From a bacterium (GTDB lineage Bacteria > Patescibacteriota > Minisyncoccia > Minisyncoccales > UBA10102), in the NCBI GenBank assembly GCA_030647485.1, contig JAUSJT010000004.1, positions 1 to 43,087 on the forward strand: 43,087 bases of DNA, read 5' to 3'. Under the pieces are notes generated by a model that did not search any database, was not told where the DNA came from, and saw nothing but the letters and a program-made list of their open reading frames with translations. Made by a program: the position numbers and the translations under genes. Shown piece after piece: positions 1 to 39,618 of this stretch. Within the stretch, counting starts at the first letter, position 1, and each line of letters begins with the position of its first letter.

Positions 1-3000
1 GGCAACGTCGGCATCAACGATACAACTCCTGATGGACTTTTGGATCTTGATAGCTCCGCAACTGCTACCAATGTACTTGGCATTACAAATACAGCAATAT
101 TCACAGGAACAGGAACCTCATCGGTAGCACAAATTACCGCAAACTCTCTCACCGCTGGTACTGGTATTACTCTTTCTATTACCGGCCTCACCACAGGCAC
201 AGGACTTTCCATTGCAGGAGGAGGAGCGAACCTCGCGGCAGGAGGCGAACTCATAGACCTTGTCATGGGGCTGGCAACCGCAGGCAACGGCATGAACATC
301 ACTTCAACAGGAGCATACGCTGGAACAGGACTTCTTCTCCTGACCGCAGACTCTGCAACCGGAGGCACCATACAGGCAATCACTGCCGACGCCCTTACCA
401 CGGGAACAGGCCTTGCGGTTTCTTCAGATTCCAATGAAGCGCTGGCAGCAGGCAGACTTGCGAGCTTTGTCCATTCCGCAGTTGGAACAGCCGTGGTTGC
501 AAAGACCGGCAGCTTATTCTCTCTCACCTCATCAATTACAGAATCCGGCACTAGCACCCAAGACTTTGACGCGGCGTCCTTCGTACGCACCAGCATTCAC
601 GACACAGCCGGAACCCTTACTGCCACAGGTTCAGTGTTGTACATTGAGAACGTAGCAACCCAGACTGCCGCAACCCTTGCAGACACCACGAAAGGCATTG
701 AGGTAGTAATGGATGCAGACGGCACAGGAGACGGCATTGAGGTTACGCACAACGCTCTTACCGGAGTTGCCCTTGACGTCATATCCCTTGCAAACACAGG
801 TTCGGGGCAGGTGATCACAGCCAACTCGCTGACCACAGGCACCGGCCTAAGAGTTATTTCCTCCGGAGTCATTGCAACCACAGGAGAGCTTGTGGAGTTC
901 ACTGCTTCAGGAGCAACCACGACAACAGGAGCTGTGCGTCTTACAACCGCTGTTCTCTCAACCGGAACAGCCTTGCTCGTGCAGACCAACACTGCAGCCT
1001 TTACCACAGGAGGCAAGGCAATAGAGATTGACCTTGTTGCCGCAGTAGCAGGAAACGGTCTTACCATTGCAACCACCGGAGTATATACCGGCACTGGCCT
1101 TCTCACCATCACAGCCAACGGCCTTACCACAGGCACAGGTCTTGCCATCAGTTCAACCGCTACAGGGCTCACCACAGGCAGTCTGCTCTCGGTCACCACT
1201 TCAACCACTGGAGCTGTTGCCACGAATGGCGTTGTGTCCATATCCTCTTCTGGAGCCTTTACCTCAACCTCTAATGCAGGTCTCTTGAATGTTGCAGCCA
1301 CAGGGCTTGTGGGCACAGGCACCATGGTAAACATCAATCCCTCAAACGTCTCTCAACTTACCAACACCGCCCTGAACATATCCCAAACAGGCGTGACAAC
1401 CGGATACACCGGCACCTTGGTTTCCATCAGCTCAACCTCAACAACAGGAGCTGCCACGTTCTTTGCAATCACTGACAACGTTGCCACTGTTGCCACTGGC
1501 CAAGCAATTTCCATGACAGGCCTCACCACAGGCACAGGACTTTCCATTGCAGGAGGAGGAGCGAACCTCGCGGCAGGAGGCGAACTCATAGACCTTGTCA
1601 TGGGAGCTGCTACTGCAGGGAATGGACTTACGGTGAGCACTACAGGCGCCTACACAGGAACAGGATTGGTGGTTCTCACTGCGAACAGTTTGACCACAGG
1701 CATTGCGTTGAGCATACCTCACACTACCTCGGTCATTGCCAGCGGAGGATCTCTTGCCAGAATATCCTCCACTTCCATAGATACCAGCACAACCACAGGA
1801 GTGCTGCTTGACCTCTCTTCCACCGCATCTCTTGCCGGAACCCAGTTCTTACAAACATACTCTGGTTTAACTACAGGCATTGGACAGTCCATAGTAACTA
1901 ACGCCTTGACCACAGGAACAGCGTTAAATATCAGTTCCACATCTACTGCAGGAGGAGCAAGCGGAGTTTCAAAACTTCTCAACCTTGCAAGGTCAGGGGC
2001 TAATGCCCAGCTTGCGCACACCGCATACGGTCTGTACTCCGCGGTTACCAATACCAACGCAACTTCTGGCACCAATGTCGCGGGATACTTTTCCGCATCT
2101 GGTGCAACCACTGCAAACTACGCCATTCAGGTGGCGCAGAACAACTGGATTGGCGGCATAGACAGCGCAACAACCGGAGTAGTGCGAATGTTTAAGATAA
2201 ACGCTTCAGATCAAATTCAAGTGGGAGCTGCCTTAAGCATGGACGGGGGCATTACCCTTCCAACAGACGCGGGAGCCGTAACGTTGGTTGACCTGCCCCT
2301 TAGTCTTACCTCGTCAACTGCGAATTCCTATACCTTCAAAATAGGTTCCGACAATATCTTAACAATATATGGGGAGTCTGGCGCAACAGCAGGCCTTTTG
2401 TATAACGGTAGGGTGGGCATTGGCGACATTACTCCAGATGCTATCTTTGACATAGACGGAACAGCAATATCCGGTGGCATTGGAACAGTTCTCGTCACCC
2501 CAGGAGCCCATACCGCAGTCGTTGCAGAAGTGATTGATATATCTGTTGCTGCGCATACAAATACCATCACAGGAGCTATTACAACTCAAAGATTCACTAA
2601 CTTTGCACAGCCAGTCATCTCTGCTGCTTCTGGCCTTACCGTCACTACCGCAGCCAATATTGCTATCGCAGGAACTCCCAACCCAACAGGAGCGGGGCCA
2701 GCTACTATTACTAATGCATTTGGCTTAATGCTTGGAACCGCCCTTGCAACTGTTCCTGCGTATAGCGCTTCTAACGCAACTACTATTACCAGTGCCGCCA
2801 TGCTCTATGTTGCTGGTGCTCCTGTAACAGGAGGTAATGTTACAGTAACCAATGGCTATGCTCTCTGGGTAGACGGGGGAAAGACGCGATTAGATGGAGG
2901 AGGCACATCTGCCCAAGCTAGCGCAGCAGGCGGAGTATTAGAAATACAAGCGTCCACCGTTAATGGAAACAATGCCAGTAGCACTATTGCCATTGGAGCG

Positions 3001-4731
3001 TCAGTGTCTATAGGCGTGACAACCTATACGAACAATACCGCTACCCTAACAATGACTAATGCCGCAAGTATGTATATTGCAGGAATACCTGTGGCAAGTA
3101 CAAATGTAGCGTTCACAAATCCTGCCTACGCCCTCTGGGTGGATGCGGGAACGAGCAGGTTTGACGGCGCAGTAACCTATGGCTCCCAAGCTACATTCAC
3201 CGATTCGGATGCCACTCCTGATGTTTCTGCGGGTTCCCATTTTATAACCAACACCACGGCAGTAACCATTACCGACTTTGACGCGGGGGCTGGAACCTTG
3301 CAGGCAGGCCATATTATATATGTAGAGAGTAATGGAACCATTACCTATGATGTTGACGGGGGTCTTCTTGAAGCTGGGGCAGTTGACTTGGTGACTGCAG
3401 CAGGAGATCTTACTACTTGGATATACGATGGAGTTGATGACTGGATCCTTGTTTCCTGGATGAAGAATTCTGCCACCCAAACCGGCGCTGACGTTGCAGA
3501 ACTTTTCCCAAGCCAAGAGCAGCTTGAACCAGGAGATGTGGTGTCTGCTGACACCGGATATCCAGTGAATGTGAAAAAGAGCGTGGCAAAGTATGAGAGA
3601 CAGCTTCTCGGTGTTGTGTCCACCCAGCCCCATATTACGCTTGGTCAAGGCACCGAAGGCACCACCTATCCTATAGCTCTTGCAGGACGCGTGCCAGTGA
3701 AGGTTTCGCTTGAGAACGGCCCGATTGTCATTGGCGATCATCTTACTTCTTCTACTATTCCTGGAGTTGCAATGAAAGCTACGTCTACGGGGAACACCAT
3801 AGGTATTGCCTTGGGAGCATACGACGGCACACAGCTAGAAGCAAAGATTATGGTGTTTATTCAGCTTGGCTGGCAAGGAGGGAGCGCCTTGAGCGTGTAT
3901 CAAAACGCAGACGGCACTCTTTCTTATGAGGCTCTTACGGTTAAGGCAGGCTTTGAAGAGCTCGGTTTTACAATAACAGGGCAGGGAGAGCTTCAGGTTA
4001 ACAAACTTACGACACAAGAACTTTGCGTGGGAGCAACCTGTATCACCGAAACCACCCTCTTAAACTTAATGGGATTAAGTTCTCCACAGCCTGGCACCAC
4101 ATTGGCGGTAGAAGAACAGAATAGCCAGCTTGTAAACACAACTCCTCTCCAGACGCAGTTAGCCGAGCTGGGCTTGGTAGTAAACACCAACGGGGCATTG
4201 GAGGTAAACATCTTAAAAGCCCAGCGGGTGGAGATTACCAGTCCTTATGGCCTTACTATATATGATGTAGTGACGGGTCAGCCCCAGTGCGTGTTCTCGC
4301 AAGAAGGCCAGCTAAGAACTATTGCAGGCAAATGCGACGGCATTGTAGCCAACGTACAGCCTAGTGGAAGTGAGACTTCACCCGGAGGGGGCAGTCTCAC
4401 TTCGGCCCCAATAGAGGAGCCAGTAGCCCCAGCTCCAAGCCCAGTTAGCAGTGAAGTCGAACCTCAATCAGCAGAGGGCGGTTCGACTTCGACACTAATA
4501 GAGCCAGAACCAGCTCCCGCGCCAGTGCCAAGCCCTGAACCAATCCTAGAGCCTGCCTCAGTCTTAGAGCCAACTCTTGAGCCCACGCCTACGCCAAGTC
4601 CTGAACCAGCTCCAACCCCAGAGTCTGTTCTAGAACCTGCCCCAGCCCCTGCCCCAGAACCAGCTCCTGCCCCAGCTCCTGAACCAACCCCCGAACCTAT
4701 TCCATCAGAAACCTCAGCAGTCATTCAGTAA
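1..4731 (+). CDS. Giant Thr/Gly/Ala-rich surface/fibre protein (5'-partial), with a peptidase_G2/intramolecular-chaperone-like autocleavage domain and a Pro-Glu-rich tail
   Basis: Frame is open from base 1 (GNVGINDTTPDGLLD...), so the true start is upstream. Repeated LTTGTGL motifs; GADVAELF...LGVVSTQP...PIALAGRVPVKV...GDHLTSS block; (EPAP/EPTP)n tail. Confidence 0.75.
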   Translation, partial: GNVGINDTTPDGLLDLDSSATATNVLGITNTAIFTGTGTSSVAQITANSLTAGTGITLSITGLTTGTGLSIAGGGANLAAGGELIDLVMGLATAGNGMNITSTGAYAGTGLLLLTADSATGGTIQAITADALTTGTGLAVSSDSNEALAAGRLASFVHSAVGTAVVAKTGSLFSLTSSITESGTSTQDFDAASFVRTSIHDTAGTLTATGSVLYIENVATQTAATLADTTKGIEVVMDADGTGDGIEVTHNALTGVALDVISLANTGSGQVITANSLTTGTGLRVISSGVIATTGELVEFTASGATTTTGAVRLTTAVLSTGTALLVQTNTAAFTTGGKAIEIDLVAAVAGNGLTIATTGVYTGTGLLTITANGLTTGTGLAISSTATGLTTGSLLSVTTSTTGAVATNGVVSISSSGAFTSTSNAGLLNVAATGLVGTGTMVNINPSNVSQLTNTALNISQTGVTTGYTGTLVSISSTSTTGAATFFAITDNVATVATGQAISMTGLTTGTGLSIAGGGANLAAGGELIDLVMGAATAGNGLTVSTTGAYTGTGLVVLTANSLTTGIALSIPHTTSVIASGGSLARISSTSIDTSTTTGVLLDLSSTASLAGTQFLQTYSGLTTGIGQSIVTNALTTGTALNISSTSTAGGASGVSKLLNLARSGANAQLAHTAYGLYSAVTNTNATSGTNVAGYFSASGATTANYAIQVAQNNWIGGIDSATTGVVRMFKINASDQIQVGAALSMDGGITLPTDAGAVTLVDLPLSLTSSTANSYTFKIGSDNILTIYGESGATAGLLYNGRVGIGDITPDAIFDIDGTAISGGIGTVLVTPGAHTAVVAEVIDISVAAHTNTITGAITTQRFTNFAQPVISAASGLTVTTAANIAIAGTPNPTGAGPATITNAFGLMLGTALATVPAYSASNATTITSAAMLYVAGAPVTGGNVTVTNGYALWVDGGKTRLDGGGTSAQASAAGGVLEIQASTVNGNNASSTIAIGASVSIGVTTYTNNTATLTMTNAASMYIAGIPVASTNVAFTNPAYALWVDAGTSRFDGAVTYGSQATFTDSDATPDVSAGSHFITNTTAVTITDFDAGAGTLQAGHIIYVESNGTITYDVDGGLLEAGAVDLVTAAGDLTTWIYDGVDDWILVSWMKNSATQTGADVAELFPSQEQLEPGDVVSADTGYPVNVKKSVAKYERQLLGVVSTQPHITLGQGTEGTTYPIALAGRVPVKVSLENGPIVIGDHLTSSTIPGVAMKATSTGNTIGIALGAYDGTQLEAKIMVFIQLGWQGGSALSVYQNADGTLSYEALTVKAGFEELGFTITGQGELQVNKLTTQELCVGATCITETTLLNLMGLSSPQPGTTLAVEEQNSQLVNTTPLQTQLAELGLVVNTNGALEVNILKAQRVEITSPYGLTIYDVVTGQPQCVFSQEGQLRTIAGKCDGIVANVQPSGSETSPGGGSLTSAPIEEPVAPAPSPVSSEVEPQSAEGGSTSTLIEPEPAPAPVPSPEPILEPASVLEPTLEPTPTPSPEPAPTPESVLEPAPAPAPEPAPAPAPEPTPEPIPSETSAVIQ
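184..1604 (+). repeat. Identical 86-nt direct repeat (184-269 and 1519-1604) inside the giant gene
   Basis: ggcctcaccacaggcacaggactttcc...gaccttgtcatggg occurs twice with no mismatch. Confidence 0.9.
4367..4490. repeat. Two REP-like inverted doublets inside the giant gene 3' end
   Basis: GAAGTGAGACT (4367-4377) / AGTCTCACTTC (4393-4403) and GAAGTCGAACC (4453-4463) / GGTTCGACTTC (4480-4490) are both perfect 11-bp inverted repeats. Confidence 0.75.
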
Positions 4732-4854: not shown

Positions 4855-5139
4855 TATATGATGTGGTACACTTATGTATTGAAAAGTAAAAAGGATAATC
4901 AATGGTATACAGGATATACCGAAGATTTGCGAAAAAGATTTTCAGATCACAACAAGGGCCTTGTCTATGCAACAAGAAAACGCAGACCTTTTACCCTCAT
5001 CTATTACGAAGCATGTATAGATGAACGCGATGCAAAAATGCGAGAGCAATATTTAAAATCAGGACAAGGTAAAAGGTATATTAAGAACAGGTTAAAATTC
5101 TTTTTCGCAAATCAATAATTTCTAACGGGGCTACCCCGA
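4829..5139. mobile_element. Putative GIY-YIG cassette bounded by terminal inverted repeats
   Basis: TCGGGGTGCTCCCCGTTAGAAATTA (4829-4853) and TAATTTCTAACGGGGCTACCCCGA (5116-5139), with a perfect 15-bp core. Confidence 0.6.
4858..5118 (+). CDS. Stand-alone GIY-YIG nuclease family protein
   Basis: YTYVL...WYTGYTEDLRKRFSDHNKG...YYE...REQYLKSGQG; 86 aa. Confidence 0.9.
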   Translation: MMWYTYVLKSKKDNQWYTGYTEDLRKRFSDHNKGLVYATRKRRPFTLIYYEACIDERDAKMREQYLKSGQGKRYIKNRLKFFFANQ

Positions 5140-6580: not shown

Positions 6581-6698
6581 AACTAAATTCCATTTAGTTA
6601 TCCACAGCTAAACGTCCACAGCTAAACGAGATTTAAGCACTAGCAAAACATTTGCACATAAACTTATAATAGAATGGCACTACTAAATCTCATTTAAG
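6581..6698. repeat. Hairpin/DnaA-box-like repeat copy with a 14-nt tandem duplication, plus a solo hairpin
   Basis: AACTAAAT-TCC-ATTTAGTT (6581-6599); TTATCCACA (6598-6606); TCCACAGCTAAACG x2 (6601-6628); CTAAAT-CTC-ATTTA (6683-6696). Confidence 0.75.
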
Positions 6699-6709
6699 AA
6701 TAACAAGAA

Positions 6710-6796
6710 ATGATAAGGAAAAAGTTTGAGCAAGGTAATATTTATCACGTGTATAATAGAGGCGTTGAAAAACGCGACGTTTTTCTTCTGCTTTAG
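6710..6796 (+). pseudogene. Truncated 5' fragment of a RAYT-like transposase
   Basis: MIRKKFEQGNIYHVYNRGVEKRDVFLLL* versus MKRVRFEKGKIYHVYNRGVEKRSIFL of 6967..7686. Confidence 0.8.
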
Positions 6797-6957
6797 AATC
6801 CTGCCTAAGTCAATCCTGCCTAAGCCTCGCTCAATCCTGCCTAAGCCTCGCTTAGTTATCCCCACCTAAGCGAGGCTTAGGTGGTAGCCAGGACCCTTTC
6901 TTTAAGATTATAATTATGAATATAAGAGAATCCTAAGCCTCGCTTAGGCAAGCTTAG
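6797..6957. repeat. REP-like hairpin cluster CCTAAGC-CTC/GAG-GCTTAGG
   Basis: Three AATCCTGCCTAAG units of increasing length; doublet 6840-6881 with TTATCCCCA linker; further copy at 6932-6948. Confidence 0.9.
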
Positions 6958-6966
6958 ACGATTGTT

Positions 6967-7686
6967 ATGAAACGGGTTCGATTTGAAAAAGGGAAAATTT
7001 ATCACGTATATAATCGAGGCGTTGAGAAACGGTCCATTTTTCTCTCCGAGGGCGATCGCTGGAGATTTCTTCAAGGTCTGTATTTATTTAATGATGAAAC
7101 TGGATCTGCCAATCTTTTGTATCGTCTTGAACAAGAAAAAGGCAAGATGCACTTTGGTATTTTGCGCGAGTATATGGCCCGGCACGGCGCTAAACGGAAA
7201 CCATTGGTTCGCATTATGGCAGATTGCTTGAAATCAAATCACTTTCATATGGCAATTGAAGAAACAACGGAAAACGGCATTTCAAGATTTATGCAGAAAT
7301 TGGGCACTGGTTATACAAAGTACTTTAATACTAAGTACGAACGAGTAGGTCCTTTATTCCAGGGCCCATTCAAGGCAGTAGAGGTGAAGAGCGATGAACA
7401 GCTTATGTATCTTCTTGCGTACATAAACGCAATCAATCCAGGACAGGAACTGGAACCGGAACTGAAGTCTGCCGCGCAAAACCCCGAAGAAATATTGAGT
7501 TTTATAGAGGATCATTTTCTGTGGAGCACGCACTTGGAATATCTTGGGAAGCGCGATTCTATTATCGTTGACAAGGGTATTGCAGGTGAGCTTTTTTCTA
7601 GCCCTGTACGATACAGGAAGTTCATAGCAGATATTATACGAGGTAAACAAAGATCGGGATTGCAGGATAATCTCCTGTTAGATTAA
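6967..7686 (+). CDS. HUH/Y1 tyrosine transposase (RAYT/IS200-like)
   Basis: YHVYNRGVEKR, HUH motif NHFH, YFNTKYERVGPLFQGPFK, YINAINP; flanked by hairpins. Confidence 0.85.
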   Translation: MKRVRFEKGKIYHVYNRGVEKRSIFLSEGDRWRFLQGLYLFNDETGSANLLYRLEQEKGKMHFGILREYMARHGAKRKPLVRIMADCLKSNHFHMAIEETTENGISRFMQKLGTGYTKYFNTKYERVGPLFQGPFKAVEVKSDEQLMYLLAYINAINPGQELEPELKSAAQNPEEILSFIEDHFLWSTHLEYLGKRDSIIVDKGIAGELFSSPVRYRKFIADIIRGKQRSGLQDNLLLD

Positions 7687-7688
7687 TT

Positions 7689-7712
7689 TGTTGATAACTT
7701 AACCAGGCTAAG
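7689..7712. repeat. Half copy of the hairpin/DnaA-box-like repeat
   Basis: TGTTGATAA-CTTAAC-CAG-GCTAAG immediately after the transposase stop codon. Confidence 0.6.
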
Positions 7713-8510: not shown

Positions 8511-8580
8511 AAAACCGAGCACCCAATTGAGTGCTCGGCACTGGCGATCTCGCACAGTACGAGATTCCGGCTTGCCATCC
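8511..8580 (-). ncRNA. Candidate ~70-nt small RNA
   Basis: Lies between a near-consensus promoter and the terminator hairpin CCGAGCAC/GTGCTCGG + TTTT; internal hairpin ATCTCG/CGAGAT. Confidence 0.5.
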
Positions 8581-8586
8581 ATTATT

Positions 8587-8615
8587 ATTCTACCAACCCC
8601 GGGCATAGCTGTCAA
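8587..8615 (-). promoter_or_regulatory. Sigma70-type promoter
   Basis: TTGACA-17 nt-TAGAAT on the minus strand. Confidence 0.65.
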
Positions 8616-8724
8616 ATTATACCCCGGGGCATTTTATACGCTCACCACGGAGGGCTCGCTAAAATGCCCGTTGAAGACAAGCAGTTGTCTTCAACCCCCG
8701 CGGGTCCACTGCCAGGTAAACTAT

Positions 8725-9627
8725 ATGACTACAATTATACAAAGAGAAAATAAAAAGTATCCAAAGCTGTTGGCTCAGATTGGAGACGCGCCAAAGCAGC
8801 TGTATTATAAAGGTACTTGGGATGCTACGATTTTTGAACATTGTCTTGCGGTGGTAGGTACGAGAAAAATGACAACGTATGGCAAGCGCATGACAGAGCA
8901 GCTGGTAGGGGAAATTGCCAGCGCAGGAATCACCATTGTTTCTGGATTCATGTATGGTATTGATGCTGCCGCTCACAAAGCCGCGCTACGGGCTGGCGGT
9001 AGAACCATTGCGGTAATGCCATGTGGTATTGACATGATTCATCCTTCAGACCAAGCAGACCTGTACAAAGAAATTGTAGACATGGGAGGGCTTGTGCTTT
9101 CTGAATACGAAGGGAATTTTCAGCCTTTACTCTGGACATATCCAAAGCGAAACCGCATTGTGGCAGGCCTTTCTCAAGCAACGCTTGTGGTAGAGGCGGG
9201 AGAAAAATCTGGTTCTCTGATTACTGCACATTTTGCCAAGAAATACAGAAGAAAACTTTTTGTGGTGCCAGGCCCACTTACCAGCAGCGTATCAGTCGGA
9301 ATTATGCAGCTTATCAAAGAAGGGGCAGAAGTGGTTGGCGGCGCAAAAGATGTGCTGGATTTTTATCGCTCGAATCTTGGATTTTCTTTGCGCTTTATCC
9401 CGCCAGCTGGCGGGAGCCCTACGCGTCTGCAGAAAACCCAAGATCCTCGCTCTCTTTCTACTCTCGAAGAAAAAGTTCTAGAGGAGTTGCGAGCGGAGCC
9501 AAAAGAAGTTGACGAATTGGCTCGTTTGTTTGGCGCTTCAGCTGCTCACATTGGAAGCGTTCTCTCTTTTCTTGAATTATCTGGTGCGATAACAAATGAA
9601 AATGGAAAGTACGGTATCATTTCCTAA
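8725..9627 (+). CDS. dprA: DNA-processing protein DprA
   Basis: LAVVGTR, IVSGFMYGIDAAAH, RNRIVAGLS, VVEAGEKSGSLITA; C-terminal winged helix. Start reassigned to ATG 8725. Confidence 0.93.
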   Translation: MTTIIQRENKKYPKLLAQIGDAPKQLYYKGTWDATIFEHCLAVVGTRKMTTYGKRMTEQLVGEIASAGITIVSGFMYGIDAAAHKAALRAGGRTIAVMPCGIDMIHPSDQADLYKEIVDMGGLVLSEYEGNFQPLLWTYPKRNRIVAGLSQATLVVEAGEKSGSLITAHFAKKYRRKLFVVPGPLTSSVSVGIMQLIKEGAEVVGGAKDVLDFYRSNLGFSLRFIPPAGGSPTRLQKTQDPRSLSTLEEKVLEELRAEPKEVDELARLFGASAAHIGSVLSFLELSGAITNENGKYGIIS

Positions 9628-26415: not shown

Positions 26416-27135
26416 ATGAGAAGAAAAATTCCATTCGTCGTAGGGAAAATCTACCATATTTATAATCGAGGTGTTGCTAAGTGCCAAATTTGCAATGGAG
26501 AAGCGGACTGCTGGAGATTTATGCAAGGATTATGTTTATTTAATGATACTAAGAGTACAAGCAGTATACTCTGGCATCTTGAGCGAGATCGAAGTAGACT
26601 CACTATGAATGTGTTGAAGCAATATCTTGTTGATCACGGGAAAAGTAGAGAGCCGCTCGTGCGTATTATGGCGTATTGCCTTATGGGTAATCACTATCAT
26701 CTTATATCTGAAGAAATCCAGGAGGGCGGAATTACAAAATTTATGCACAAGCTCGGCGTTGGATATGCAAATTATTTCAATAACAAACATAAGCGAGTGG
26801 GAAGTTTGTTCCAGGGCAGGTTTAAAAACGTGTTAGTTGAAACCGACCAGCAGCTTCTTTACTTGCTGGTCTATATTAACGTGTTGAATCCTGCTGAGTT
26901 TGTTGCGCCAAATTGGAAAGAACAAGGAATACCAAATATAGGAAAAGTGTTACAATACGCAGAGAGTTACATCTGGGGTACGCATTTGGAGTATTTAGGA
27001 AAGCGGAAGTCACTGATTATTGATAAAGGAATTCTTGATGAGATGCTTCCCACGCCAGAAGCGTATCTTGAATTAGTATGTGGTGTGTTGAGGGGAAAGA
27101 AATACGAAGCAGTAGCTGAACTTATGCTCGAGTAA
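26416..27135 (+). CDS. Second HUH/Y1 tyrosine transposase (RAYT-like)
   Basis: YHIYNRG, NHYH, YFNNKHKRVGSLFQGRFK, YINVLNP; 239 aa from ATG 26416. Confidence 0.85.
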   Translation: MRRKIPFVVGKIYHIYNRGVAKCQICNGEADCWRFMQGLCLFNDTKSTSSILWHLERDRSRLTMNVLKQYLVDHGKSREPLVRIMAYCLMGNHYHLISEEIQEGGITKFMHKLGVGYANYFNNKHKRVGSLFQGRFKNVLVETDQQLLYLLVYINVLNPAEFVAPNWKEQGIPNIGKVLQYAESYIWGTHLEYLGKRKSLIIDKGILDEMLPTPEAYLELVCGVLRGKKYEAVAELMLE

Positions 27136-38283: not shown

Positions 38284-39618
38284 TCACGAGGATTTAAGTG
38301 CGTCAACCTTTCTAAGTTTCCTGTGATAGGTGACGGCAAAGCGATGGGCTTCGTCGCGCACGTGCAAAAGGAGGTTAGAAACCTCCTGGGGAAGGTTTCG
38401 GAGCAAGACCGGGTCTGCTTTCCCTGGAGAAAAGAGCTCATTATTCCGTTTTGCCAAAGCAACAACCTTAATTTTTTGCAACTTAATCTCATTAAGGTGT
38501 GGATAACTTAATTCCATTAAGTTTGAAATGGCTTTGAGGGCAGAAGAAAGCTGGCCTTTTCCTCCGTCAATGAGCATAAGATCGGGGTAGGGCCATTCCG
38601 TGTGTTTGAGGCGTCGGGAGATGAGCTCTTGCATCATGGCAAAATCATTCGGTTTGCCAGTGATATGGATCTTGAATTTTCGGTACCATTCTTTTGCGGG
38701 TTTTCCTTTTAGAAAGGTTACCATAGATCCCGTAGACTGTTTGCCCTGGATGTTGGATATGTCATACGCTTCTATTCTCGTATACCCTGACCAGGGTTTT
38801 GGGAGAGGAACATCCTGTGAGGGTTGCCAGCGCACTGCGTGAGATAGCACATTCTCTAAGGAGAAAATCTGGTCTCGCAATACTGCTGCTTTTTCAAAGT
38901 CTTGTTCTTTGCTTGCTTGCGCCATTGATTTCTTAAGGTTTTTGAGAACAGAGGTTCTACCTCCCCTAAGAACTGCAGCAAGGTTCTTAATATTCTGTTT
39001 GTATTCTTTTGGGTTAGGATTGGGCCCTGGGCACAGATCAATATGGCAATAAGGACAAGGGAGTATGGGATGTTTCTTTGCGGTGTAGTAAGGGAATGCC
39101 CGTCTCAAAAGGCGCAAGACCTGTTTGATTGCCTTTCCCTCAACGAAAGGCCCGATGTAGTTAAAATTCAAGTTAGTGTCCAAGCGGCTAGTGCCTAAGC
39201 TAGTGCCTAAGCGAGGCTTAGGCATTCCTAAGCCTCGCTTAGGCAGAAATCGCTTAGGCAGAAAGGGTTGATGGGTTAGAAATACTCGAGGGAATTTCTC
39301 TTTTGTGATGGCGACATAGAAATACTTCTTGTCGTCCTTCCACATAACGTTGTACTTTGGCTGGTGTGATTTTATAAGTTGGGATTCAAGTAATAGAGCG
39401 TCAATTTCAGATTGAGTTTCAAAGTATCCTACTCTGGTTACTTGGGATATGAAAAGATTGTCTCGGTATGAGGCTTTGGCAAAGTGGTTTTTTACGCGGT
39501 CTCGCAGGTTTGCAGCCTTTCCGATATACAAGATTTCTTTTCCTCCCAAGAAAGTATATACTCCCGCAGTTTTTGGGATTGGGTTGATGTTTTTTTTGGC
39601 GATATACCTGAATTTCAT
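38284..39618 (-). CDS. uvrC: Excinuclease ABC subunit C (short form)
   Basis: GVYTF...YIGKAANLRDRV, UVR domain, RIEAYDISN, IDGGKGQL, RDEAHRFA. Confidence 0.93.
   Translation of the reverse strand: MKFRYIAKKNINPIPKTAGVYTFLGGKEILYIGKAANLRDRVKNHFAKASYRDNLFISQVTRVGYFETQSEIDALLLESQLIKSHQPKYNVMWKDDKKYFYVAITKEKFPRVFLTHQPFLPKRFLPKRGLGMPKPRLGTSLGTSRLDTNLNFNYIGPFVEGKAIKQVLRLLRRAFPYYTAKKHPILPCPYCHIDLCPGPNPNPKEYKQNIKNLAAVLRGGRTSVLKNLKKSMAQASKEQDFEKAAVLRDQIFSLENVLSHAVRWQPSQDVPLPKPWSGYTRIEAYDISNIQGKQSTGSMVTFLKGKPAKEWYRKFKIHITGKPNDFAMMQELISRRLKHTEWPYPDLMLIDGGKGQLSSALKAISNLMELSYPHLNEIKLQKIKVVALAKRNNELFSPGKADPVLLRNLPQEVSNLLLHVRDEAHRFAVTYHRKLRKVDALKSS
38482..38521. repeat. Hairpin-DnaA box-hairpin repeat inside uvrC
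   Basis: CTTAAT-CTC-ATTAAG G TGTGGATAA CTTAAT-TCC-ATTAAG. Confidence 0.85.
39187..39264. repeat. CCTAAGC-GAG/CTC-GCTTAGG doublet with duplicated flanks inside uvrC
   Basis: Same 17-mer as at 6840-6948; GCTAGTGCCTAA x2 and TCGCTTAGGCAGAAA x2. Confidence 0.9.

What the first reader, a model, noticed from the sequence alone, without database searches (positions are those of the whole stretch)
39187..39264. The transposase-adjacent REP 17-mer reappears 32 kb away as an in-frame insertion in uvrC
Seen: CCTAAGC-GAG-GCTTAGG and CCTAAGC-CTC-GCTTAGG match the hairpins upstream of transposase 1. They encode FLPKRFLPKRGLGMPKPRLGTSLGTS between the ...VFLTH and YIGPF blocks, with the frame intact. Flank duplications are 12 and 15 nt, both multiples of three. 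Inference: the best evidence here that this repeat moves and is tolerated in coding DNA. uvrC also carries a second copy (NLMELSYPHLNEIK).
Basis: partly seen in the sequence, partly recalled or inferred. Interest (0 to 1): 0.75.

Follow-up and report, generated by a model that had tools for sequence, protein, structure and literature searches.

The report
Translated REP hairpin doublet inside uvrC
A small palindromic "selfish" DNA repeat, the same one that flanks a hairpin-specific transposase gene 32 kb away, sits in frame in a floppy linker of the DNA-repair gene uvrC of a tiny groundwater bacterium; such in-gene repeats are already known from other bacteria.

Summary
uvrC (window 38284-39618, minus strand) carries two inverted 17-nt hairpins 4 nt apart, identical to the hairpins upstream of a Y1/HUH transposase gene (6967-7686). 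In-frame tandem duplications of 12 and 15 nt flank them.

The unit is a REPIN-like doublet with a 19-20 bp long hairpin. The genome holds six such doublets, all in the single open frame and all in linkers or loops: UvrC, TsaD, LigA, IleRS, Pth and an unnamed protein. The AlphaFold2 model puts the uvrC insert in a disordered loop.

Mobility of the family is supported:
- Relative G002 has 15 near-identical copies.
- Three genomes each carry their own sequence variant, and each variant matches the hairpins flanking that genome's transposase orthologue.
- G024 lacks the orthologue and shows only decayed or empty sites.

The uvrC copy itself is not a fresh insertion. The same site is occupied in another genus. 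The flank duplications are better read as local tandem duplications than as target-site duplications.

REPs inside repair genes and Rickettsia palindromic elements are already published. This scan had also found the same kind of element in other Patescibacteria. I rate it a new variant of a known kind, of moderate interest.

The parts
38284..39618 (-). uvrC coding sequence (444 aa), host of both elements
   Evidence: ORF. Pfam GIY-YIG, UVR and UvrC_RNaseH. TIGR00194 at 319.5 bits. Catalytic-type residues are invariant in the 19-sequence alignment.
39204..39245 (.). Core palindrome TG-CCTAAGCGAGGCTTAGG-CATT-CCTAAGCCTCGCTTAGG-CA: two inverted 17-nt REP-like arms with a 4-nt spacer and a 19-bp long hairpin. 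On the coding strand it reads L-PKRGLGMPKPRLG-T.
   Evidence: Fold as DNA -32 kcal/mol (z -8.8) and as RNA -52.5 kcal/mol (z -8.6); both folds cover 39180-39270 and include the outer helix. Long-hairpin covariation.
39188..39211 (.). 12-nt tandem duplication CTAGTGCCTAAG x2 (element end plus unique flank). On the coding strand it gives the repeated LGTS.
   Evidence: period 12, 2.2 copies, 100% match.
39235..39264 (.). 15-nt tandem duplication TCGCTTAGGCAGAAA x2 (element end plus unique flank). On the coding strand it gives the repeated FLPKR. Its outer copy pairs with the outer copy of the 12-nt duplication as a second 9-bp helix.
   Evidence: period 15, 2.0 copies, 100% match; predicted outer helix.
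38481..38523 (-). Second, related in-frame element: hairpin CTTAAT-GGA-ATTAAG, spacer TTATCCACA, hairpin CTTAAT-GAG-ATTAAG. It encodes NLMELSYPHLNEIK in a variable loop of the RNase H-like domain.
   Evidence: The same peptide type (NLIPLSYPQLN.IK) occurs in other ORFs. pLDDT is about 79-90 there.
6967..7686 (+). RAYT-like Y1 (HUH) transposase gene, 'RAYT-1' (239 aa). HUH motif NHFH at residues 91-94; Tyr motif YINAINP at 152-158.
   Evidence: Pfam PF01797 (11 of 11 aligned homologues). Invariant H92, H94, Y152, N157 and P158.
6811..6948 (.). REP cluster upstream of RAYT-1: three partial tandem copies of AATCCTGCCTAAG..., the doublet CCTAAGCCTCGCTTAG-TTATCCCCA-CCTAAGCGAGGCTTAGG (6840-6881), and a single hairpin CCTAAGCCTCGCTTAGG (6932-6948) 19 nt before the start codon.
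7698..7712 (.). Imperfect hairpin CTTAACCAGGCTAAG just downstream of RAYT-1, the other flank of the REP-RAYT-REP arrangement.
   Evidence: downstream sequence. Orthologues in G002, G041, G018, G023 and G007 show a hairpin downstream as well.
6713..6787 (+). Fragment of a second RAYT N-terminus (72% identical to residues 2-26 of RAYT-1), cut off by the REP cluster.
   Evidence: sequence.

Best explanation
The uvrC insert is one copy of a REPIN-type element. [quoted passage not shown] It belongs to the hairpin family that flanks, and is probably handled in trans by, the RAYT-like Y1/HUH transposase at 6967-7686.

The 17+4 nt register (21 nt) and the fact that only one of three frames lacks a stop let the doublet be read through as PKRGLGxPKPRLG. 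Copies therefore survive only where about 14 extra residues are harmless, that is in disordered linkers and loops of otherwise conserved proteins. In uvrC the site is the linker between the GIY-YIG nuclease domain and the Cys-rich/UVR region.

The uvrC copy is an old resident of that site, not a fresh jump. In each genome that keeps a cognate transposase, the resident copies stay perfect palindromes and carry that genome's own sequence variant. I infer re-copying or conversion from the active master, or repeated re-insertion at the same permissive sites. Where the transposase orthologue is missing the copies decay.

The 12- and 15-nt flank repeats are in-frame local tandem duplications at the foot of the hairpin.

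Shown: sequence identity with the transposase flanks, in-frame position, disordered location, covariation of the long hairpin, copy numbers, cross-genome variant matching, presence/absence differences.
Inferred: that this transposase is the enzyme, how copies are homogenised, and that the peptide is neutral.
For: (1) The same 17-mers lie at uvrC and upstream of RAYT-1: 4 matches against 0 expected.

(2) Genome-wide there are 22 hits with up to 2 mismatches, against 0-4 in 20 shuffles. All 6 of 6 doublets with a 4-nt spacer lie in long ORFs in the one open frame. None of the 3 doublets with a 9-nt spacer, which carry stops in all six frames, lies in an ORF. Hosts are UvrC, TsaD, LigA (between HHH_2 and BRCT), an IleRS-type synthetase (between the catalytic and anticodon domains), Pth and an unnamed 446-aa ORF.

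(3) Of 18 UvrC orthologues aligned, 16 lack the peptide, G002 has the doublet at the same site and G024 has a decayed one.

(4) In the AF2 model, residues 124-148 have pLDDT below 50 and the rest of the protein is confident (mean 81).

(5) Long hairpin: 7 of 20 pairs carry compensatory changes in 31 cells; 0 of 500 shuffles reach that. The two small hairpins show none within this set.

(6) The doublet occurs in 3 of 36 family genomes: G000 6, G002 15 (13 identical), G043 1; the backwards control gives 0.

(7) RAYT-1 orthologues in G002 and G042 are flanked by that genome's own hairpin variant. The same variant makes up that genome's dispersed doublets: G002 15 and G042 11.

(8) G024 has no RAYT-1 orthologue (best match 34% identity). 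It shows only decayed copies (uvrC, 446-aa ORF, ileS) or no element (tsaD, pth).

(9) At five shared sites the element is 156/190 (82%) identical between G000 and G002, against 527/840 (63%) for the flanking coding DNA.

(10) All 11 of 11 aligned homologues match Pfam Y1_Tnp, with invariant HUH and Tyr motifs.
Against: - No enzyme activity or transposition intermediate was seen.
- RAYT-1 matches no NCBIfam model and no solved structure by sequence or profile. Its fold model was unusable.
- The hairpins lack the GTAG or CGTC tag of described REPs: 2 of 61 and 1 of 61 arms.
- Several genomes have a close RAYT-1 orthologue but no doublet of the variants I searched: G041, G004, G011, G018, G009, G013.
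- The G042 orthologue carries an in-frame TAG, yet G042 has 11 copies.
- Occupancy of the same sites by unrelated hairpin elements in other genomes could mean that the sites, not the enzyme, drive the pattern.
- Perfect palindromy can also be kept by template-switch repair without any transposase (established mechanism, recalled).
- Translation of the insert was not shown.
Confidence: 0.78

Rival explanations
1. Selected function rather than selfish passenger. The hairpin (as RNA, pausing ribosomes between domains, or as DNA) or the PK..LG peptide is kept because it helps the host, which would explain why the same linker sites stay occupied across genera.
For: - The same sites are occupied in G000, G002 and G042.
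- The element is more conserved than the flanking coding DNA, 82% against 63%.
- Five of the six G000 copies lie in mapped linkers or variable loops; the sixth host has no Pfam domain.
- The RNA hairpin is very stable, -52.5 kcal/mol.
Against: - 16 of 18 UvrC orthologues do without it.
- G024 and G043 have intact tsaD and pth with no element.
- The sequence follows the genome's transposase flanks, not the host gene.
- Other genomes have unrelated repeats at the same sites.
- The insert is predicted to be disordered.
Confidence: 0.1
2. In-situ origin without transposition. The palindromes arise and are perfected locally by slippage and template-switch synthesis at permissive linker sites, and their resemblance to the transposase flanks is secondary.
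For: - Tandem partial duplications at element borders are frequent: uvrC on both sides, window about 6811-6840 (three copies), C2:93799, C2:257785, and G002 ileS.
- Unique flanking bases are also complementary: gtg/cac, ctg/cag, gct/agc.
- Different palindromes occupy the same sites in different genomes.
Against: - Thirteen identical 38-mers sit at unrelated loci in G002.
- The sequence is identical to the RAYT-1 flanks in G000 and G002, and matches them in G042.
- Chance expectation is zero.
- G002 has copies at sites that are empty in G000, for example the L042 host.
Confidence: 0.08
3. Assembly artefact. The repeat-rich linker in uvrC was mis-joined in this metagenome-assembled genome.
For: The genome is a 4-contig metagenomic assembly. 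No public contig that I could lay spans the whole 901-nt stretch.
Against: - The reading frame is intact across 78 nt of repeat, and both duplications are multiples of three.
- An independently assembled genome (G002) has the doublet at the same uvrC site.
- One run holds all sampled 31-mers of the stretch, but it may be the source sample.
Confidence: 0.03

Closest known systems
REP / REPIN elements with RAYT (REP-associated tyrosine transposases). Bertels & Rainey 2011, PMC3116915 and PMC3337134 (abstracts read); passages of PMC8049555.
   Same: - Two inverted REP hairpins, separated by a short spacer, form a longer hairpin.
- Hairpins of the same sequence flank a Y1/HUH transposase gene on both sides.
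- Each transposase paralogue has its own hairpin type.
- Variants are genome-specific, and copies decay where the cognate transposase is absent.
   Different: - The copies with a 4-nt spacer lie inside genes and appear to be translated, whereas REPINs are defined as extragenic.
- There is no GTAG tag (2 of 61 arms). Instead a conserved TTATCC(A/C)CA spacer sits in the intergenic form.
- The spacer is very short (4 nt) and copy numbers are small (6-15).
- The genome has five transposase paralogues, not a single-copy RAYT.
- The transposase matches no NCBIfam model.
Intragenic GTAG/CGTC REPs in replication and repair genes. Di Nocera et al. 2013, PMC3733652 (abstract and passages read).
   Same: - Single REPs and REP dimers lie in frame inside known proteins.
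- Hosts include excinuclease ABC genes, often twice in one gene.
- Dimers encode 20-30 residues.
- The authors propose a location in flexible linkers.
   Different: - Those elements carry GTAG or CGTC tags and come from other phyla, for example Opitutus terrae, Rickettsia conorii and Thioalkalivibrio.
- The text I read names uvrA and uvrB, not uvrC. I did not open its Additional file 3.
- It reports no cross-genome tracking of variants with the transposase flanks.
Rickettsia palindromic elements (RPEs), as summarised in the MITE review PMC10969869 (passages read).
   Same: Palindromic repeats inserted in frame in unrelated housekeeping genes of a reduced genome, giving extra peptide segments compatible with protein function.
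   Different: - RPEs are about 150 bp as summarised there; this unit is 38-44 nt.
- The passages I read name no transposase for RPEs.
- The phylum differs.

Membership tests
REP/REPIN-RAYT system | Transposase of the Y1 HUH (IS200/IS605-like) superfamily with an HUH motif and a catalytic Tyr | tested here: met
   PF01797 at 25.9 bits against a cut-off of 23. All 11 of 11 homologues match, best E-value 2.3e-8. Invariant NH(F/Y)H and YIN..NP motifs.
REP/REPIN-RAYT system | Transposase gene flanked on both sides by the repeated hairpins | tested here: met
   Upstream doublet and single hairpin, and an imperfect hairpin downstream of 6967-7686. Among the orthologue loci, G002, G041, G018, G023 and G007 show a hairpin on both sides; G011 and G042 show the upstream doublet only.
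REP/REPIN-RAYT system | Doublets of inverted REPs forming a hairpin, better conserved than chance, with complementarity kept between the arms | tested here: met
   7 of 20 pairs carry compensatory changes; 0 of 500 shuffles reach that. Fold z-scores are -8.8 and -8.6.
REP/REPIN-RAYT system | Extragenic location | tested here: not met
   6 of 6 doublets with a 4-nt spacer in G000 lie in long ORFs. 37 of 61 perfect hairpin arms lie in ORFs of 120 aa or more.
GTAG- or CGTC-tagged REP superfamilies (PMC3733652) | GTAG or CGTC tetranucleotide at one end of the stem-loop | tested here: not met
   GTAG lies within 10 nt of 2 of 61 arms and CGTC of 1 of 61.
RAYT as modelled by NCBI / solved RAYT and IS200 TnpA structures | Match to a curated RAYT model or to a solved RAYT/TnpA chain | tested here: not met
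   No NCBIfam family at E-value up to 0.01. No PDB chain by phmmer. The only profile hit is spurious (atlastin, E 0.21). The AF2 model has pLDDT 45.9, so no fold search was run.
REP/REPIN-RAYT system | Transposase cleaves and joins the REP hairpin DNA | not testable with these tools
   Needs biochemistry.
Rickettsia palindromic elements (RPE) | Sequence or size class of an RPE family (about 150 bp, Rickettsia; PMC10969869) | tested here: not met
   The unit is 38-44 nt. An exact-pattern scan of one genome for each of 185,579 species found it in only one other genome, a relative from this family, and G000's own records may be left out of that scan.
UvrC (host gene) | GIY-YIG, UVR and RNase H-like endonuclease domains with conserved catalytic-type residues | tested here: met
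   Invariant Y21, Y31, G33, R41, E78, N90, D286, D351 and H425. No C-terminal HhH domain was found: the TIGR00194 match ends at profile position 540 of 574.

The most novel reading that the evidence does not exclude
In these ultra-small Patescibacteria, coding-compatible REPINs may be long-term residents of fixed inter-domain linker sites in essential genes. They would be actively overwritten to each genome's current master sequence by a RAYT-like enzyme, a homing-like copy-replacement that acts inside open reading frames. The conserved TTATCC(A/C)CA tag of the intergenic form, identical to the E. coli-type DnaA box (recalled), might couple them to replication. They would then be a maintained genomic symbiont population living inside proteins, not decaying junk.
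Probability: 0.2. Interest if true: 0.8.

Novelty: new variant of a known kind. Interest (0 to 1): 0.5.

Why it matters
The finding extends the REPIN/RAYT system to a coding-compatible form in Patescibacteria (CPR). These genomes have almost no intergenic space, so the repeats live in protein linkers. My full-text searches found no paper linking REP/RAYT elements to this phylum.

The cross-genome pattern gives a directly testable handle on how REPIN populations are maintained. The same sites carry genome-specific variants that match the transposase flanks, and the copies decay where the orthologue is absent.

There are also practical consequences:
- Such inserts inflate and blur alignments of marker genes (uvrC, tsaD, ileS, pth, ligA).
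- They can split genes. ileS in G041 reads in two frames at the element site.

For uvrC itself the insert looks harmless.

Tried and rejected
- Read laying. Only Logan contigs were available and no record spans the 901-nt stretch. The run that holds all sampled words may be the source sample, so this is no independent check of the assembly. No RNA holder was listed, so nothing can be said about expression. One 1520-nt contig in X1, from a diverged relative, joins 39159 to 39298 with 54 other letters in place of 138. The similarity is too low to call it an empty site.
- Sequence and profile searches of RAYT-1 against solved structures found nothing usable.
- The AF2 model of RAYT-1 from an 11-sequence alignment had pLDDT 45.9, so I ran no fold search.
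- NCBIfam gave no family for RAYT-1.
- A pattern search for 21-register doublets of the G018-type hairpin (CTTGCC...GGCAAG) found none in G018 or G050. The CTAAAT-type pattern found none in G041, G043 or G024. The downstream doublet in G041 has a 5-nt offset, which that pattern cannot match.
- I considered reading the flank repeats as target-site duplications and rejected it. Each contains part of the element's arm, their lengths differ (12 and 15 nt), and comparable one-sided duplications occur at other copies.
- I considered that 'all copies are coding' reflects targeting to genes. G042 has 5 of 10 examined doublets outside ORFs of 80 aa or more, and 4 of 15 G002 copies lie at or upstream of gene starts, so I dropped that idea.
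- The scan's earlier notes were searched by sequence: nothing was found.
Full report
**Observation**

CCTAAGCGAGGCTTAGG lies at 39206-39222 and CCTAAGCCTCGCTTAGG at 39227-39243. The same two words lie at 6865-6881 and 6932-6948. That is 4 matches to CCTAAGCNNNGCTTAGG in the window, against none in 100 dinucleotide shuffles.

They lie in the minus-strand ORF 38284-39618 (444 aa). This ORF is UvrC by Pfam (GIY-YIG, UVR, UvrC_RNaseH) and by TIGR00194 (319.5 bits). The coding strand reads ...VFLTHQP-FLPKRFLPKRGLGMPKPRLGTSLGTS-RLDTNLNFN-YIGPF.

Tandem Repeats Finder confirms a 12-nt unit x2.2 at 39187-39212 and a 15-nt unit x2.0 at 39235-39264, both 100% matching.

The ORF at 6967-7686 matches Pfam Y1_Tnp. 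It has an invariant NH(F/Y)H (HUH) motif and a YIN..NP tyrosine motif. All 11 of 11 aligned homologues match PF01797.

**Anatomy**

The two arms are reverse complements of each other, separated by 4 nt. With the flanking TG...CA they form a 19-bp hairpin. The outer copies of the two border duplications add a second 9-bp helix. The fold energy is -32 kcal/mol as DNA (z -8.8) and -52.5 kcal/mol as RNA (z -8.6).

Each arm is also a small 7-bp hairpin. Each arm is open in only one of three reading frames, on either strand. Because 17+4 = 21, both arms fall in that frame and give PKRGLG-x-PKPRLG.

A second form has a 9-nt spacer, TTATCCCCA or TTATCCACA. It has stops in all six frames.

**The family in this genome**

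The genome (G000) is 630 kb in 4 contigs.
- There are 22 hits to the 17-mer with up to 2 mismatches, against 0-4 in 20 shuffles.
- All six doublets with a 4-nt spacer lie in long ORFs in the open frame. The hosts are UvrC, TsaD, LigA (between HHH_2 and BRCT), an IleRS-type synthetase (between the catalytic and anticodon domains), Pth and an unnamed 446-aa ORF.
- All three doublets with a 9-nt spacer are intergenic.
- The arms belong to a wider superfamily of small hairpins, CTWARY-NNN-RYTWAG. There are 61 perfect arms, against about 1-3 expected by my own estimate. Of these, 37 lie in ORFs of 120 aa or more.
- The 'second copy' in uvrC (about 38481-38523, NLMELSYPHLNEIK) is a member of that superfamily: CTTAAT hairpin, TTATCCACA, CTTAAT hairpin. 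The same peptide type recurs in other ORFs.

**Is it an insertion?**

UvrC was found in 30 of 41 related genomes. I aligned the 19 full-length ORFs; the truncated L006 was dropped.
- The stretch between THQP and YIGPF is a variable linker.
- 16 of 18 relatives lack the peptide. One of them, L007, has a long unrelated insert.
- G002, from another genus, has the same 38-nt doublet at the same place with other loops (PKLSLGAPKLSLG).
- G024 has a decayed version (QKQSLKTPKSRLE).
- Three further congeners of G002 show other inserts or none recognisable. G041 has an ATACAAG-type palindrome. G042 has a GC-rich insert. For G043 my pattern found no clean linker.

The AlphaFold2 model built on this alignment has mean pLDDT 81. 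Residues 124-148 are below 50, and these are the insert. The second element has pLDDT of about 79-90. Catalytic-type residues of both nuclease domains are invariant. The gene therefore looks functional and the insert looks like a disordered loop.

**Does the family move, and with what?**

- *Distribution.* A pattern search over the 36 genomes of the family found the doublet (up to 3 mismatches) in 3 of 36: G000 has 6, G002 has 15 (13 of them identical 38-mers) and G043 has 1 diverged copy. The backwards control gave none. An exact-pattern scan of one genome for each of 185,579 species found it in only one other genome, the one equivalent to G002.
- *G002 copies.* All 15 lie in an open frame of 80 aa or more. 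For 11 of 15 the G000 orthologue aligns on both sides. The other four (L021, L030, L037, L039) sit at or upstream of gene starts and may be non-coding.
- *Transposase orthologues.* RAYT-1 has orthologues of 70% identity or more in G041, G004, G011, G043, G018, G002, G009, G042 (one in-frame TAG), G013 and G050. It has none in G024, where the best match is 34%.
- *Flanks match the dispersed copies.* In G002 the orthologue is flanked by CCTAAGCTTAGCTTAG-TTATTCACA-GCTAAGCTAAGCTTAGG upstream and ACTAAGCTTAGCTTAGG downstream. That is the loop variant of G002's dispersed copies. In G042 the flank is CCTAAACGAGATTTAAGC. G042 has 11 doublets, nine of them on the CTAAACGAGATTTAGG / CCTAAATCTCGTTTAG theme. 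Of 10 examined, 5 lie in ORFs of 80 aa or more.
- *Shared architecture.* G011, G041, G042 and G018 show the same hairpin-TTATCC(A/C)CA-hairpin architecture with different stems; in G041 the tag reads CTATCCCCA.
- *Other paralogues.* The other four transposase paralogues of G000 have different flanks. Two carry their own hairpin type on both sides, one has only a downstream GC-rich hairpin, and one has none that I recognised.

**Site matrix**

| Site | G000 | G002 | G042 | G024 | G043 | G041 |
|---|---|---|---|---|---|---|
| tsaD | doublet | doublet | single arm | nothing | nothing | other repeat |
| pth | doublet | doublet | doublet (own variant) | empty | empty | no match |
| 446-aa ORF | doublet (own variant) | doublet (own variant) | doublet (own variant) | decayed | different palindrome | not resolved |
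| ileS | doublet | doublet | doublet | decayed, same length | doublet | PRLGLGAPRPSLG; gene reads in two frames |
| ligA | intact doublet | no match with this query | same-length linker | same-length linker | same-length linker | slightly longer linker |

- Five of the six G000 sites also carry a doublet in G002.
- At four further G002 sites, G000 has a different hairpin element: dprA (window 9358-9471), a Mur-type ligase, rnhB (CTTAAT type) and cca (a GGAAACC doublet).
- One G002 site (the L042 host) is empty in G000.
- Across the five shared sites the element is 82% identical between G000 and G002 (156/190). The flanking coding DNA is 63% identical (527/840).
- In an alignment of all 22 doublets, the long hairpin has compensatory changes at 7 of 20 pairs (31 cells; 0 of 500 shuffles reach this). 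These include the three 'loop' positions of each arm and the three flanking bases. The small hairpins show no covariation within this set.

**Reading**

The element is a REPIN-type doublet tied to a RAYT-like transposase. The family has amplified: G002 holds 15 copies, and there are presence/absence differences within a genus.

The uvrC copy, however, is an old occupant of a permissive linker. Its sequence tracks the genome's transposase-flanking hairpin, not the site. This implies either homogenisation of resident copies or repeated re-insertion at the few tolerated sites. I cannot tell these apart.

G024 has no orthologue and only decayed or empty sites. This fits the published picture that REP singlets and REPINs decay without their RAYT (passage of PMC8049555).

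The border duplications include unique flank plus part of an arm. They differ in length and recur one-sidedly elsewhere: window about 6811-6840 (three copies), C2:93799, C2:257785, and G002 ileS. They are best read as local tandem duplications at the hairpin foot, not as target-site duplications. This step is inference.

**Against my reading**

- There is no biochemical evidence.
- The transposase is distant from curated RAYT models and from solved structures.
- The hairpins lack GTAG or CGTC tags (2 of 61 and 1 of 61 arms).
- Six genomes have a close orthologue but none of the doublet variants I searched.
- The G042 orthologue has a stop codon.
- Template-switch repair could keep palindromes perfect without an enzyme.
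- Read laying gave no independent check of the assembly.

**What is known**

- REPINs and RAYTs are described as extragenic elements (abstracts of PMC3116915 and PMC3337134).
- Di Nocera et al. 2013 (PMC3733652; abstract and passages) already report single REPs and REP dimers inside ORFs. Many are in replication and excision-repair genes (uvrA and uvrB are named), and the authors suggest a linker location.
- Rickettsia palindromic elements are the classic in-frame case (passages of PMC10969869).
- My full-text searches found no paper that joins these elements to Patescibacteria/CPR. 'palindromic + in-frame + Patescibacteria + repeat' gave 0 papers. 'RAYT + candidate phyla radiation' gave 3 unrelated papers. 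'Patescibacteria + repetitive extragenic palindromic' gave 1 unrelated paper.
- This scan has noted the same kind of thing before in other Patescibacteria genomes, including a hairpin in another uvrC.

**Verdict**

I rate it a new variant of a known kind: coding-compatible, untagged, and found in CPR. The added value is the cross-genome evidence that in-gene copies follow the transposase-flanking variant. Interest: 0.5.

Noticed in passing
window 9358-9471 (dprA-like ORF 8527-9627); also G000 C3:8173-8271: A different structured repeat (...TTTTCTTTGCGCTTTAyCCC...GGGrGCCCTACGCGTCTGCAGAAAA...) with copy-specific inverted flanks sits in frame in dprA (LGFSLRFIPPAGGSPTRLQK) and in a Mur-type ligase. 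These are exactly the sites where G002 carries the CCTAAGC doublet.
   Followed up: partly
G000 genome-wide; RAYT-1 orthologue loci L074, L076, L078, L079, L081: The 9-nt spacer between intergenic hairpin pairs is TTATCC(A/C)CA, with one-base variants in G041 and G002. The motif is the same as the E. coli-type DnaA box (recalled). It is conserved across genomes while the hairpin stems change. There are 52 TTATCCNCA sites in G000, against about 19 expected by my estimate. By eye about 16 are flanked by family hairpins; a script counted 11 of 61 perfect arms adjacent to one. A cluster of four lies at C2:217177-217317. dnaA itself is at C3:26427-26909.
   Followed up: partly
window 6713-6787: An orphan N-terminal fragment of a second RAYT copy (MIRKKFEQGNIYHVYNRGVEKRDVF...) ends where the REP cluster begins. 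This suggests a past duplication or rearrangement at the transposase locus.
   Followed up: no
window 6583-6640: Another family member (CTAAATTCCATTTAG-TTATCCACA) is followed by a 14-nt tandem duplication (CCACAGCTAAACG x2). This is the same kind of border duplication as at uvrC.
   Followed up: no
window 26422-27120: A second RAYT-like paralogue lies in the window (47% identical to RAYT-1). It has a GC-rich hairpin (GGGCTGGGCGAAACC/GGTTTCGCCCAGCCC) just downstream and none of the CCTAAGC hairpins.
   Followed up: partly
window 4858-5118: A stand-alone 86-aa GIY-YIG nuclease ORF (Pfam E-value 3.4e-16). Earlier notes of this scan link small GIY-YIG genes to other mini-elements of this genome.
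   Followed up: no
window 38284-39618 and 18 orthologues: UvrC in this whole family is short (about 410-460 aa). No C-terminal helix-hairpin-helix domain was detected; the TIGR00194 match ends at profile position 540 of 574.
   Followed up: no
L125/L126 (G041 ileS): In G041 the ileS gene reads in two different frames on either side of the element site (query residues 1-87 and 100-200). This is either a frameshift at the repeat or an assembly error.
   Followed up: no
G000 C3:47426-47506 (CCA-adding enzyme); C2:198534-198632 (rnhB): Other in-frame hairpin doublets occupy sites where G002 or G042 carry the CCTAAGC/CCTAAAC doublet. One is GGAAACCAGGTTTCC-CAA-GGAAACCTGGTTTCC (KPGFPRKPGF). The other is a pair of CTTAAT hairpins (LNFIK...NLIKLS).
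   Followed up: partly
G000 C4:85187-85460: Six family hairpins within 290 nt lie inside a 1546-aa ORF. They read as repeated LN.IKD / LSLAKD / NLIPLS peptides, an in-gene array of REP-like units.
   Followed up: no
window 1-4731: The window opens with a very large (more than 1570 aa, 5'-open) Thr/Gly/Ala-rich repetitive ORF with a Pro/Glu/Ala-rich tail, probably a surface protein.
   Followed up: no
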